A stretch of DNA of 64,000 bases, taken from NCBI RefSeq assembly GCF_003790525.1, contig NZ_CP033635.1; one strand, given 5' to 3'. The stretch is from Escherichia coli (GTDB taxonomy: Bacteria > Pseudomonadota > Gammaproteobacteria > Enterobacterales > Enterobacteriaceae). The notes under the pieces were generated by a model. It saw only the letters and a list, made by a program, of their open reading frames with translations. It was not told where the DNA came from and did no database searches. A program made the position numbers and the translations under genes. This document shows positions 5,489 to 28,913 of the stretch, piece by piece; within the stretch, counting starts at the first letter, position 1, and every line of letters begins with the position of its first letter.

Positions 5489-6313
5489 ATGGAACAGAGA
5501 AAAATTACACGCAGCGATCTGGTGAGCATGTTTCTGCGCTCCAACCTGCAACAGGCATCCTTTAACTTTGAACGTATTCACGGGCTGGGTTTTTGCTACG
5601 ACATGATCCCCGCCATCAAACGACTTTACCCATTAAAAGAGGATCAGGTTGCGGCGCTCAGGCGACACCTAGTGTTCTTCAATACCACGCCAGCCGTATG
5701 TGGCCCGGTCATCGGCGTCACTGCCGCCATGGAAGAGGCGCGAGCCAACGGCGCGGAAATTGATGACGGTACCATTAACGGCATCAAAGTCGGCCTGATG
5801 GGACCGTTGGCAGGTGTTGGCGATCCACTGGTCTGGGGAACGCTGCGCCCGATTACCGCCGCGCTCGGCGCATCTCTGGCACTTTCGGGCAACATTCTCG
5901 GCCCCCTGCTGTTCTTCTTTATTTTCAATGCAGTACGTCTGGCAATGAAATGGTATGGGCTGCAACTGGGCTTTCGTAAAGGGGTGAATATCGTCAGCGA
6001 TATGGGCGGTAATTTGCTGCAAAAACTGACCGAAGGCGCGTCGATTCTCGGGCTGTTTGTAATGGGCGTACTGGTGACCAAATGGACATCGATCAACGTG
6101 CCGTTAGTGGTTTCACAAACGCCTGCCGCCGATGGTGCCACCGTCACTATGACCGTACAGAACATTCTCGACCAGCTTTGCCCTGGATTGCTGGCGCTCG
6201 GTTTGACGCTGCTGATGGTACGTCTGCTCAACAAAAAAATTAACCCGGTATGGCTGATTTTCGCCCTGTTTGGTTTAGGGATTATCGGTAATGCGCTGGG
6301 CTTCCTGTCCTGA
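5489..6313 (+). CDS. sorM: PTS mannose/sorbose-family EIID component
   Basis: ORF track starts at a TTG (5459); the ATG at 5489 (MEQRKITRSDL...) has ACGGAG 5 nt upstream. Membrane protein resembling the EIID family. Confidence 0.8.
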   Translation: MEQRKITRSDLVSMFLRSNLQQASFNFERIHGLGFCYDMIPAIKRLYPLKEDQVAALRRHLVFFNTTPAVCGPVIGVTAAMEEARANGAEIDDGTINGIKVGLMGPLAGVGDPLVWGTLRPITAALGASLALSGNILGPLLFFFIFNAVRLAMKWYGLQLGFRKGVNIVSDMGGNLLQKLTEGASILGLFVMGVLVTKWTSINVPLVVSQTPAADGATVTMTVQNILDQLCPGLLALGLTLLMVRLLNKKINPVWLIFALFGLGIIGNALGFLS

Positions 6314-15034: not shown

Positions 15035-15859
15035 ATGGTCGCACCCATTCCCGCGAAACGCGGCAGAAAACCCGCCGTTGCCACCGCACCAGCGACTGGA
15101 CAGGTTCAGTCTTTAACGCGTGGCCTGAAATTACTGGAGTGGATTGCCGAATCCAATGGCAGTGTGGCACTCACGGAGCTGGCGCAACAAGCCGGGTTAC
15201 CCAATTCCACGACCCACCGCCTGCTAACCACGATGCAACAGCAGGGTTTCGTGCGTCAGGTTGGCGAACTGGGACACTGGGCAATCGGCGCACATGCCTT
15301 TATGGTCGGCAGCAGCTTTCTCCAGAGCCGTAATTTGTTAGCAATTGTTCACCCTATCCTGCGCAATCTAATGGAAGAGTCTGGCGAAACGGTCAATATG
15401 GCGGTGCTTGATCAAAGCGATCATGAAGCGATTATTATCGACCAGGTACAGTGTACCCACCTGATGCGAATGTCCGCGCCTATCGGCGGTAAATTACCTA
15501 TGCACGCTTCCGGTGCGGGTAAAGCCTTTTTAGCCCAACTGAGCGAAGAACAGGTGACGAAGCTGCTGCACCGCAAAGGGTTACATGCCTATACCCACGC
15601 AACGCTAGTGTCTCCTGTGCATTTAAAAGAAGATCTCGCCCAAACGCGCAAACGGGGTTATTCATTTGACGATGAGGAACATGCGCTGGGGCTACGTTGC
15701 CTTGCAGCGTGTATTTTCGATGAGCACCGTGAACCGTTTGCCGCAATTTCTATTTCCGGACCGATTTCACGTATTACCGATGACCGCGTGACCGAGTTTG
15801 GCGCGATGGTGATTAAAGCGGCGAAGGAAGTGACGCTGGCGTACGGTGGAATGCGCTGA
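15035..15859 (+). CDS. iclR: Glyoxylate-shunt repressor IclR
   Basis: 274 aa from the ATG at 15035 (AAGGAG at 15024-15029); MVAPIPAKRGRKPAVATAPATGQVQSLTRGLKLLEWIAES... matches IclR. Confidence 0.95.
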   Translation: MVAPIPAKRGRKPAVATAPATGQVQSLTRGLKLLEWIAESNGSVALTELAQQAGLPNSTTHRLLTTMQQQGFVRQVGELGHWAIGAHAFMVGSSFLQSRNLLAIVHPILRNLMEESGETVNMAVLDQSDHEAIIIDQVQCTHLMRMSAPIGGKLPMHASGAGKAFLAQLSEEQVTKLLHRKGLHAYTHATLVSPVHLKEDLAQTRKRGYSFDDEEHALGLRCLAACIFDEHREPFAAISISGPISRITDDRVTEFGAMVIKAAKEVTLAYGGMR

Positions 15860-15875
15860 CTTTTTCGCCTCTGAT

Positions 15876-17600
<1,725 letters not shown>

Positions 17601-20987: not shown

Positions 20988-21917
20988 TTAATCCAGCGTT
21001 GGATTCATGTGCCGTAGATCGTATGGCGTGATCTGGTAGACGTAATAGTTGAGCCAGTTGGTAAACAGCAAATTACCGTGACTACGCCAGCTCGCTCGCG
21101 GTTTGTTTTGCGGATCATTGTGCGGGAAATAGTTATACGGTACTTCCGGGTCTAGTCCGGCTTCCACATCGCGGAAATATTCCTGCGCCAGCGTTTGCGC
21201 ATCATATTCGGGATGGCCCGTCACAAAGGCAATGCGCTTATCTTTGCTGGCAAACAGATATGCATCCCCTTCTTCCGTCTCTGCCAGAATTTCCAGATCG
21301 GTGTAATCACGAATCAACGCTGCCGGAAAGTCAGCATAGCGCGAATGCGGTGCCAGGAATGAATCATCAAAGCCACGCGTCAGAAGCGCATGAGGATGGA
21401 GAATATGATGCTCGTAAACGCCAGAGAGTTTGTCGGTGCGAGTTTGCTTAGGAATGCCGTAGAGGATATTTAGCGCGGCCTGTACCGCCCAGCAGACAAA
21501 CAGCGTCGAGGTGACGTGATCTTTCGACCACTCCAGCACCTGTTTGATCTGCGGCCAGTAAGCGACATCATTAAACTCCACCAGGCCCAGCGGCGCGCCG
21601 GTAACTATCAGACCGTCAAAGTTTTGTTCCTGAATATCTTCAAAGTTACAGTAGAAGTTATTCAGATGCTCTGCGGGCGTGTTGCGCGATTCACGGGAAT
21701 CAATGCGCAACAGCTGAATATCGACCTGCAAAGGTGAGTTTGAAAGCAGGCGCAGAAACTGATTTTCAGTTTCGATCTTCTTCGGCATCAGGTTAAGGAT
21801 AAGTACCTTTAGCGGACGAATTTCCTGACCAGACGCACGAGAAGTTGTCATCACAAAGACGTTTTCTTCACGCAAGAAATTGACGGCGGGTAGCTCGTCC
21901 GGCACACGAATCGGCAT
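20988..21917 (-). CDS. metA: Homoserine O-succinyltransferase
   Basis: 309 aa, ATG confirmed; [28 protein letters not shown]... matches MetA. Confidence 0.95.
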
Positions 21918-21963: not shown

Positions 21964-22355
21964 TAGCTGAAGATAACCAGAAAATTTGCCAATGTCGAGT
22001 CTGCATGTTGAAGGTGAGAAAGTTTCAAGGAAAAGGCTACGTTAGAATATAAGAATGACGAAAAGGAGAGAAAATGGTTATTAGTATTCGCTGCTCACGG
22101 CATGAGGAAGGGGAGGAACTCGTTGCGATTTGGTGTCGTTCTGTCGATGCCACTCACGATTTTTTATCAGCAGAGTATCGGGCCGAGCTGGAGGAGCTAG
22201 TTCGTTCCTTCCTGCCGGAAGCGCCGTTGTGGGTCGCGGTTAATGAGCGGGATCGGCCGGTTGGGTTTATGTTGTTAAGTGGGCAGCATATGGATGCGCT
22301 GTTTATCGATCCTGATGTGCGCGGCTGCGGCGTGGGTCGGATGCTGGTGTAGTGG

Positions 22356-23605
<1,250 letters not shown>

Positions 23606-23860
23606 TGGTGAAGCATGCGCTCTCAATGGCCCCGGAACTGACAACCAATGTTAATGAGCAAAATGAGCAGGCGGTTGGGTTCTATAAGAAGGTGGGTTTT
23701 AAGGTTACGGGACGCTCTGAGGTGGACGATTTGGGGAAACCGTATCCATTGCTGAATCTGGCATATGTGGGGGAATAAGCTGCCCCCTATCGTGCTATCG
23801 TGCCTGCGTAAGCTGGAGCAGACGCGCCAGCGTCGCATCCGGCATTTTTTCTGCGCCAAT

Positions 23861-23890
23861 GCAAAAAGGCCATCCTGACGGATGGCCTTT
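23861..23890 (-). terminator. rrnE operon intrinsic terminator
   Basis: On the minus strand, an AAGGCCAUC...GAUGGCCUU hairpin followed by U5, immediately 3' of the 5S rRNA. Confidence 0.75.
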
Positions 23891-23901
23891 CGCTTAATTT
23901 G

Positions 23902-24021
23902 ATGCCTGGCAGTTCCCTACTCTCGCATGGGGAGACCCCACACTACCATCGGCGCTACGGCGTTTCACTTCTGAGTTCGGCATGGGGTCAGGTGGGACCA
24001 CCGCGCTAAGGCCGCCAGGCA
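23902..24021 (-). rRNA. rrfE: 5S ribosomal RNA
   Basis: 120 nt; the reverse complement begins TGCCTGGCGGC and ends ...CTGCCAGGCAT, matching E. coli 5S rRNA. Confidence 0.95.
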
Positions 24022-24112: not shown

Positions 24113-27017
<2,905 letters not shown>

Positions 27018-27210: not shown

Positions 27211-27286
27211 TGGCGTCCCCTAGGGGATTCGAACCCCTGTTACCGCCGTGAAAGGGCGGTGTCCTGGGCCTCTAGACGAAGGGGAC
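27211..27286 (-). tRNA. gltV: tRNA-Glu in the 16S-23S spacer
   Basis: Reverse complement GTCCCCTTCGTCTAGAGGCCCAGGACACCGCCCTTTCACGGCGGTAACAGGGGTTCGAATCCCCTAGGGGACGCCA (76 nt). Confidence 0.95.

Positions 27287-27371: not shown

Positions 27372-28913
<1,542 letters not shown>

What the first reader, a model, noticed from the sequence alone, without database searches (positions are those of the whole stretch)
23779..23901. yjaA appears to be absent between yjaB and the rrnE 5S gene
The yjaB stop (23778) and the 3' end of 5S rRNA (23902) are separated by about 120 bp that contains only the rrnE terminator. K-12 has the small gene yjaA in this interval as I remember it. yjaA is another Clermont marker; together with the missing arpA, this suggests an arpA-negative, yjaA-negative lineage (for example phylogroup F or a cryptic clade, pending chuA status).
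Basis: partly seen in the sequence, partly recalled or inferred. Interest (0 to 1): 0.35.

Follow-up and report, generated by a model that had tools for sequence, protein, structure and literature searches.

The report
Common yjaA-less E. coli variant
The small gene yjaA really is missing between yjaB and the 5S rRNA gene, but about half of all complete E. coli genomes lack it in the same way, it is already a standard typing marker, and here it marks a phylogroup F strain almost identical to E. coli SMS-3-5.

Summary
The yjaB stop codon is at 23776-23778 and the 3' end of the rrnE 5S rRNA is at 23902. The 123 bp between them hold no yjaA, and no YjaA homologue exists anywhere in the window.

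This is not a clean deletion. From 7 bp past the 5S end to the last codons of yjaB, K-12 has 518 bp: its own terminator, yjaA and a spacer. The window has an unrelated 121 bp: an rrn 'T2-type' terminator hairpin and one REP-like element.

The yjaA-less junction occurs in 2797 of 5426 complete E. coli genomes; yjaA occurs in 2594. Another Escherichia species, Salmonella, Citrobacter and Klebsiella also have yjaB next to the 5S gene without yjaA.

The window is 99.985% identical over 40.5 kb to E. coli SMS-3-5 (ST354). Published in silico Clermont typing gives SMS-3-5 the profile (- + - -), phylogroup F. arpA is also absent here.

yjaB itself is split by a 1258-bp IS3-family insertion (22348-23605), and the spacer contains a REP-like element as well as the terminator.

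This is a known marker polymorphism of low interest.

The parts
22074..22347 (+). yjaB 5' fragment (codons 1 to about 91), cut off by the IS insertion
   Evidence: tblastn with K-12 YjaB: residues 1-92 at 94.6%. NCBIfam NF007807 positions 1-92 of 147. Annotated as a partial pseudogene in SMS-3-5.
22348..23605 (-). 1258-bp IS3-family insertion sequence (IS911-like ends TGTAGTGG...CCACTACA), flanked by a 3-bp target duplication TGG (22345-22347 and 23606-23608)
   Evidence: Sequence inspection. Pfam HTH_Tnp_1 and rve, and NCBIfam transpos_IS3. SMS-3-5 annotates an 'IS3 family transposase, programmed frameshift' here. SMS-3-5 has 5 places matching this element.
23606..23778 (+). yjaB 3' fragment, with the stop codon TAA at 23776-23778
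   Evidence: tblastn with K-12 YjaB: residues 91-146 at 96.4%. NCBIfam NF007807 positions 91-146.
23779..23901 (.). The yjaB-rrfE spacer of the yjaA-less haplotype (123 bp). It has no similarity to the 518 bp that K-12 has here.
   Evidence: Pairwise alignment with K-12 and blastn breakpoints K-12 6167/6686 = window 23895/23773. The same junction occurs in 2797 of 5426 E. coli genomes.
23787..23802 (.). 8-bp tandem duplication CTATCGTG CTATCGTG, present as a single copy in Escherichia sp. E1V33
   Evidence: Alignment of the window with L005.
23808..23844 (.). Single, slightly degenerate REP-like element (GTAAGCTGGAGCAGACGCGCCAGCGTCGCATCCGGCA)
   Evidence: It is homologous to the REP next to the second terminator downstream of K-12 rrnA and to the better-conserved copy in Escherichia sp. 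E1V33. REP-like sequences occupy the same position in Salmonella, Citrobacter and Klebsiella.
23865..23890 (-). rrnE terminator hairpin of the 'T2 type' (AAAGGCCATCC-GTCA-GGATGGCCTTT followed by TT on the - strand). It is symmetric, so it could also terminate the convergent yjaB transcript.
   Evidence: Terminator-like site found by the scan, scored on the + strand with 11 pairs. The RNA fold of the - strand gives a 14-pair hairpin, with z = -2.7 for the whole spacer. The same hairpin precedes the 5S gene in most Enterobacteriaceae loci.
23902..24021 (-). rrfE, the 5S rRNA at the end of the rrnE operon (16S, tRNA, 23S, 5S)
   Evidence: Rfam RF00001 at 93 bits, and the LSU, SSU and tRNA hits. 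K-12 rrfE mapped by blastn.
15860..15875 (.). arpA-less junction: a 16-bp spacer between the convergent iclR (15035-15859, +) and aceK (15876-17600, -). K-12 has about 2.5 kb here, including arpA.
   Evidence: blastn and tblastn against K-12. SMS-3-5 annotation. AceK.f primer present and ArpA1.r absent.

Best explanation
The window comes from an E. coli sensu stricto strain of phylogroup F, in the ST354 / SMS-3-5 lineage. It carries the common yjaA-less haplotype of the rrnE-yjaB boundary.

In this haplotype the 5S gene is followed directly by an rrn 'T2-type' intrinsic terminator hairpin, one REP-like element, and then the stop codon of the convergent yjaB. The alternative haplotype, as in K-12, replaces this 121-bp module with 518 bp made up of a different terminator, yjaA and a spacer.

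The absence is inherited with the haplotype. It is not a private deletion, a relocation or an assembly error. The yjaA-less module is the one shared with Salmonella, Citrobacter and Klebsiella, so it is probably the older state in the Escherichia-Salmonella-Citrobacter group. That last step is an inference.

Practically, the strain types as yjaA-negative and arpA-negative in the Clermont scheme. Functionally, it lacks a small protein annotated as stress-response.
For: Shown:
- No yjaA in the window.
- Homology with K-12 breaks 7 bp past the 5S end and at the last codons of yjaB, and the two inserts are unrelated.
- The junction is 100% identical in SMS-3-5 and 22 other complete genomes, and covers at least 80% of the query in 2797 of 5426 genomes. 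yjaA is found in 2594 of 5426. The two counts sum to 5391.
- The window is 99.985% identical to SMS-3-5 over 40,461 bp.
- SMS-3-5 is ST354, in silico profile (- + - -), phylogroup F (PMC6113867 Table S2).
- The terminator and REP module is paralogous to the module downstream of K-12 rrnA.
- Escherichia sp. E1V33 has an orthologous yjaA-less spacer.
- Salmonella arizonae and diarizonae, Citrobacter, Klebsiella and Pseudocitrobacter have yjaB, a REP-like sequence, the T2-type hairpin and 5S, without yjaA.
- yjaA has 45.3% GC, against 54.5% for yjaB and 50% for metA.

Inferred: the polarity of the change, with yjaA-less as the older state.
Against: A syntenic yjaA lies between yjaB and 5S in Phytobacter diazotrophicus and Kosakonia sp. 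S29, at 65-66% amino-acid identity. It is also present in E. whittamii. An ancient presence of yjaA followed by repeated loss is therefore not excluded.

The full genome of the window's source was not available. Relocation of yjaA outside the 64 kb is excluded only indirectly: published in silico PCR on the near-identical SMS-3-5 is yjaA-negative, and the genome counts for the yjaA-bearing and yjaA-less haplotypes barely overlap, if at all. chuA and TspE4.C2 lie outside the window.
Confidence: 0.93

Rival explanations
1. yjaA was deleted recently in this particular lineage, perhaps by the IS3-family element that sits 170 bp away in yjaB.
For: An IS element lies very close, at 22348-23605, and IS elements can cause adjacent deletions.
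Against: The IS has both inverted-repeat ends and an intact 3-bp target duplication (TGG), so it made a simple insertion. The identical yjaA-less spacer occurs in genomes with an intact, IS-free yjaB, such as IAI39, CE10 and AR_0077. It occurs in 2797 genomes in all, including BL21 and O157:H7, and in another Escherichia species. The spacer is not a deletion scar but a different sequence module.
Confidence: 0.02
2. yjaA is present in the genome but has moved elsewhere, outside the 64-kb window.
For: Only 64 kb of the genome could be examined. In the genomes that have yjaA, up to 3 places per genome were seen, and one place was on a plasmid.
Against: In silico Clermont PCR on the complete genome of the near-identical SMS-3-5 is yjaA-negative. 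Genomes with yjaA (2594) and with the yjaA-less junction (2797) sum to 5391 of 5426, so overlap must be small at most.
Confidence: 0.02
3. The yjaA-bearing state is ancestral for Escherichia and beyond, and the yjaA-less haplotype arose by an old replacement. For example, gene conversion could have copied the terminator-REP module of another rrn operon over yjaA, and the result then spread by recombination.
For: Syntenic yjaA occurs in Kosakonia and Phytobacter at 65-66% amino-acid identity. The yjaA-less spacer resembles the module downstream of rrnA at 82-89% identity, as a conversion donor would.
Against: The yjaA-less arrangement, with a REP and a T2-type hairpin in the same position, is found in Salmonella, Citrobacter, Klebsiella and Pseudocitrobacter. 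That would require several independent replacements. The 29 bp next to yjaB have no counterpart at rrnA. yjaA has low GC.
Confidence: 0.25
4. The source is a cryptic Escherichia clade rather than E. coli sensu stricto.
For: Lack of both arpA and yjaA is also seen in some cryptic clades. Clade III strain TA004 is (- - - -) in ClermonTyping Table S2.
Against: The window is 99.985% identical over 40.5 kb to SMS-3-5, an E. coli phylogroup F genome. It is 97-99% identical to K-12 across the shared genes.
Confidence: 0.01

Closest known systems
yjaA presence/absence marker of the Clermont triplex and quadruplex E. coli phylotyping scheme
   Same: It is the same locus and the same polymorphism. The yjaA primers match K-12 yjaA and have no site in the window. 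The negative state is shared by about half of complete E. coli genomes.
   Different: Nothing differs in kind. This report adds only the anatomy of the negative allele: a terminator and REP module replaces the yjaA module, rather than a simple deletion.
E. coli SMS-3-5 (NC_010498.1; ST354, phylogroup F)
   Same: There are 6 mismatches in 40,461 bp. The two share the yjaA-less junction, the arpA-less aceK-iclR junction and the IS insertion in yjaB.
   Different: The window is not strictly identical, given the 6 differences. It could be any of the 23 genomes that share the IS-yjaB junction, or an unsequenced relative.
rrnB T2-type terminator and REP module downstream of other rrn operons (K-12 rrnA, next to mobB)
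   Same: It has the same hairpin (AAGGCCATCC-N4-GGATGGCCTT) followed by the same REP (TGCCGGATGCGACGCTGGCGCGTCT...), at 82-89% identity.
   Different: At rrnA the module lies about 175 bp downstream of the 5S gene, after a first terminator and a 5S-like remnant. In the window it directly abuts the 5S gene and is the only terminator.
K-12 rrnE-yjaA-yjaB haplotype
   Same: The flanking genes are the same: rrnE on one side and yjaB-metA-aceBAK on the other, at 97-99% identity.
   Different: K-12 has a private terminator (AAAAACCCCGGTCCATAAGGCCGGGGTTTTTT), yjaA (384 bp, 45% GC) and a 62-bp spacer. The last YjaB codon and the stop codon also differ, GCG TAG in K-12 against GAA TAA in the window.

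Membership tests
E. coli phylogroup F (Clermont quadruplex genotype arpA- chuA+ yjaA- TspE4.C2-) | arpA absent | tested here: met
   No ArpA homologue by tblastn (best E=0.098). aceK and iclR converge 16 bp apart. ArpA1.r primer absent and AceK.f present.
E. coli phylogroup F (Clermont quadruplex genotype arpA- chuA+ yjaA- TspE4.C2-) | yjaA absent | tested here: met
   No YjaA homologue in the window. Both yjaA primers have no site. The native locus is empty.
E. coli phylogroup F (Clermont quadruplex genotype arpA- chuA+ yjaA- TspE4.C2-) | chuA present and TspE4.C2 absent | not testable with these tools
   Both loci lie outside the 64-kb window. For the near-identical SMS-3-5, the published in silico profile is (- + - -) (PMC6113867 Table S2).
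E. coli phylogroup F (Clermont quadruplex genotype arpA- chuA+ yjaA- TspE4.C2-) | Whole-sequence relatedness to reference phylogroup F genomes | tested here: met
   99.985% identity to SMS-3-5 over 40.5 kb. The next-best IS-free matches of the junction are the F strains CE10 and IAI39, at 99.3-99.5%.
Escherichia cryptic clades | Genome-wide divergence from E. coli sensu stricto | tested here: not met
   The window is near-identical to an E. coli sensu stricto genome and 97-99% identical to K-12 in shared genes.
Intrinsic (Rho-independent) terminator of an rrn operon | G+C-rich hairpin followed by a T run, immediately downstream of the 5S gene | tested here: met
   A hairpin of 11-14 pairs at 23865-23890, followed by TTTTT on the - strand when the stem is drawn as GGCCATCC/GGATGGCC. 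It is conserved in position across genera. Termination activity itself was not tested.
REP (repetitive extragenic palindromic) element | Imperfect palindrome of about 35 bp matching the REP consensus, in an intergenic position between convergent genes | tested here: inconclusive
   23808-23844 aligns with the REP copies downstream of K-12 rrnA and in Escherichia sp. E1V33. It carries substitutions in the conserved arms (GCTGGAGCAG against GCTGGATAAG). No formal REP model was run.

The most novel reading that the evidence does not exclude
The two unrelated modules at the rrnE-yjaB boundary may be an old polymorphism that crosses species boundaries, kept or repeatedly exchanged by recombination across Escherichia. 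One module is yjaA with a private terminator; the other is a REP with a T2-type terminator. E. whittamii carries the yjaA form with YjaA 100% identical to K-12, and Escherichia sp. E1V33 carries the yjaA-less form. A syntenic yjaA in Kosakonia and Phytobacter hints at an origin before the genus. Under this reading the Clermont marker would track a recombining haplotype rather than phylogeny.
Probability: 0.25. Interest if true: 0.25.

Novelty: already known. Interest (0 to 1): 0.06.

Why it matters
It matters little beyond typing. The absence of yjaA and arpA, together with near-identity to SMS-3-5, identifies the source as a phylogroup F (ST354-like) E. coli, a lineage found in poultry, dogs, humans and water. 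The one small addition is anatomical. The yjaA-negative allele is not a deletion of the K-12 sequence but a different, widely conserved terminator and REP module. This explains why the marker behaves as a clean presence/absence character, and suggests that yjaA is the gained or exchanged state.

Tried and rejected
- I looked for any residual similarity between the window's 121 bp and K-12's 518 bp. The alignment shows only scattered chance matches, so a simple internal deletion is rejected.
- I considered IS-mediated deletion. It is rejected because the IS has an intact 3-bp target duplication and IS-free genomes share the same spacer.
- I considered assembly collapse at the rrn repeat. It is rejected because the junction is identical in 23 complete genomes and is present in 2797.
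- I tried to read the outgroup loci directly in Python, but the loci from the search for related loci were not copied to the script machine. I exported them through an alignment instead.
- Most outgroup contigs stop in or just after the 5S gene, and the E. albertii contig ends 27 bp after yjaB, so its state is undetermined. E. fergusonii was not recovered by the scan.
- I could not name the IS element beyond 'IS3 family, IS911-like ends', because no ISfinder-type library is available.
- A literature search for yjaA function returned only a gene-list mention under biofilm and adhesion. Function therefore rests on the RefSeq and NCBIfam label 'stress response protein'.

Full report
**Observation.** metA lies at 20988-21917 on the - strand. 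yjaB starts at 22074 on the + strand, and its reading frame ends with TAA at 23776-23778. Rfam finds a complete rrn operon on the - strand: 16S at 27372-28913, a tRNA at 27214-27286, 23S at 24114-27017 and 5S at 23904-24019. Mapping the 120-nt K-12 rrfE onto the window puts the mature 5S 3' end at 23902.

tblastn with K-12 YjaA against all six frames of the window gives only chance matches, the best at E=1.3. The two Clermont yjaA primers, recalled from memory and found in the K-12 yjaA sequence printed, have no site in the window at up to three mismatches.

**What is there instead.** Homology between the window and K-12 runs through the rrn operon to 7 bp past the 5S end (K-12 locus position 6167 = window 23895). 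It resumes only at the last codons of yjaB (6686 = 23773). Between those points K-12 has 518 bp and the window has 121 bp, with no meaningful similarity between them.

- The K-12 segment consists of a private terminator (AAAAACCCCGGTCCATAAGGCCGGGGTTTTTT), yjaA and a 62-bp spacer.
- The window segment consists of, on the - strand going downstream from 5S, a hairpin AAAGGCCATCC-GTCA-GGATGGCCTTT at 23865-23890 followed by TT, then a REP-like element at about 23808-23844, then 29 bp of unique sequence that includes an 8-bp tandem duplication (23787-23802).
- Even the final sense codon and the stop codon of yjaB differ, GAA TAA here against GCG TAG in K-12.

The polymorphism is therefore a replacement of one module by another, not a deletion scar. 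The hairpin-plus-REP module is paralogous to the second-terminator region downstream of K-12 rrnA next to mobB. There it follows a first terminator and a 5S-like remnant. It matches what I recall as the rrnB T2 terminator of cloning vectors; that recollection is from my own knowledge.

**Frequency.** A 461-bp query spanning the yjaB 3' fragment, the spacer and the 5S gene is covered at 80% or more in 2797 of 5426 complete E. coli genomes. Genomes with yjaA can reach only about 67% coverage with this query, because the spacer does not match. K-12 yjaA DNA is found in 2594 of 5426 genomes, nearly always once. The two classes sum to 5391, so they are close to mutually exclusive and exhaustive. 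Roughly 52% of complete genomes are yjaA-less and 48% carry yjaA. The yjaA-less spacer is found in strains as different as BL21, O145:NM and O157:H7, at 90-97% identity.

**Identity of the source.** The best matches are 100% identical, including the junction with an IS element. They comprise E. coli SMS-3-5 and 22 other complete genomes from humans, chickens, dogs, water and a pangolin. Over 40,461 bp the window differs from SMS-3-5 at six positions, which is 99.985% identity. ClermonTyping Table S2 lists SMS-3-5 as Warwick ST354, in silico quadruplex (- + - -), and phylogroup F by both the PCR logic and Mash (PMC6113867). The next-best IS-free matches of the junction include the F strains CE10 and IAI39.

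arpA is also missing. iclR (15035-15859, +) and aceK (15876-17600, -) converge with a 16-bp spacer, where K-12 has about 2.5 kb including arpA. The AceK.f primer site is present and the ArpA1.r site is absent. chuA and TspE4.C2 lie outside the window and are known only through the published SMS-3-5 profile.

- Escherichia sp. E1V33 has an orthologous yjaA-less spacer. It is roughly 90% identical to the window's by my count from the printed alignment, and has a single copy of the 8-bp unit.
- Salmonella enterica subsp. arizonae and diarizonae, several Citrobacter, four Klebsiella species and a Pseudocitrobacter MAG all have yjaB, then REP-like sequence, then the same type of hairpin (AAAAAGSCCATCC...GGATGGSC), then 5S. 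The distance is 90-230 bp and there is no yjaA.
- yjaA sits between yjaB and 5S in K-12, in E. whittamii (YjaA 100% identical to K-12), and, at 65-66% amino-acid identity, in Phytobacter diazotrophicus and Kosakonia sp. S29.
- K-12 yjaA has 45.3% GC, against 54.5% for yjaB and 50% for metA.

The simplest reading is that the window retains the arrangement common to the Escherichia-Salmonella-Citrobacter-Klebsiella group, and that yjaA is the gained or exchanged module in part of Escherichia. The syntenic yjaA in Kosakonia and Phytobacter keeps open the alternative of ancient presence with repeated loss. Either way, the absence here is not a private event of this lineage.

The yjaB that ends at 23778 is only a fragment. 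A 1258-bp IS3-family element (22348-23605) splits the gene after about codon 91. It has a two-ORF transposase with a programmed frameshift on the - strand and terminal inverted repeats TGTAGTGG...CCACTACA. It is flanked by a 3-bp target duplication TGG. SMS-3-5 annotates both yjaB halves as pseudogene fragments. The insertion is specific to the 23 genomes of this lineage, since IAI39, CE10 and others have an intact yjaB next to the same spacer. The intact target duplication argues against any IS-mediated deletion of yjaA. SMS-3-5 has 5 places matching this element, and matches covering 80% or more of it occur in 1648 of 5426 genomes. The Rfam 'isrC' hit at 23415-23537 (145 bits) lies inside the IS orfA, so it most likely reflects IS homology rather than a separate sRNA gene.

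**Function and consequences.** YjaA is a 127-aa protein with no Pfam domain. NCBIfam NF041448 and RefSeq label it a stress-response protein, and a gene-set table lists it under adhesion and biofilm (PMC9501238). The strain lacks yjaA, and it also lacks a functional YjaB acetyltransferase because of the IS. The single symmetric hairpin probably terminates rrnE transcription and, on the other strand, any yjaB read-through. This is inferred from sequence only.

**Verdict.** The feature is the well-known yjaA-negative state used in Clermont phylotyping, here in a phylogroup F, SMS-3-5-like strain. Novelty: already known. Interest is low. The only modestly interesting residue is that two unrelated modules at this boundary are shared across species, which might reflect an old recombining polymorphism.

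Noticed in passing
window 22348-23605 (target duplications at 22345-22347 and 23606-23608): yjaB is split by a 1258-bp IS3-family (IS911-like) insertion with a 3-bp TGG target duplication. The insertion is shared at 100% identity with SMS-3-5 and 22 other complete genomes, and is absent from the other phylogroup F genomes IAI39 and CE10. It could serve as a lineage marker.
   Followed up: yes
window 23415-23537 (- strand): The Rfam 'isrC Hfq binding RNA' hit (145 bits, E=4e-35) lies entirely inside the IS orfA coding region. It is probably IS-derived homology rather than an independent sRNA gene.
   Followed up: partly
window 15860-15875: arpA is absent. iclR and aceK converge with a 16-bp spacer, where K-12 has about 2.5 kb. 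As a result the aceK C-terminus is 574 aa, against 578 aa in K-12.
   Followed up: yes
window 23787-23802: There is an 8-bp tandem duplication CTATCGTG/CTATCGTG in the yjaB-5S spacer. Escherichia sp. E1V33 (L005) has a single copy, and the first 20-30 bp of the spacer vary among yjaA-less E. coli.
   Followed up: partly
L004 3441-3975 (Escherichia whittamii Sa2BVA5): The E. whittamii representative carries the K-12-type yjaA module, with YjaA 100% and YjaB 99% identical to K-12. This is unexpectedly close for a different species and suggests a recent import from E. coli.
   Followed up: no
L025 and L026 (Phytobacter diazotrophicus, Kosakonia sp. S29), downstream of yjaB: A syntenic yjaA homologue (65-66% amino-acid identity) lies between yjaB and 5S. 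Here it is followed by the T2-type hairpin rather than the K-12 private terminator.
   Followed up: partly
L007 3430-3570 ('E. coli' SCPM-O-B-8794, YjaB 92% identical): The sequence downstream of yjaB is a third, unrelated variant, neither the yjaA module nor the window's spacer. The contig ends before the 5S gene.
   Followed up: no
window 24005-24010: The window's 5S differs from K-12 rrfE at two adjacent positions near the 5' end of the RNA (GCTAAGGCC against GCTACTGCC on the + strand). The same positions vary among the other Enterobacteriaceae 5S genes.
   Followed up: no
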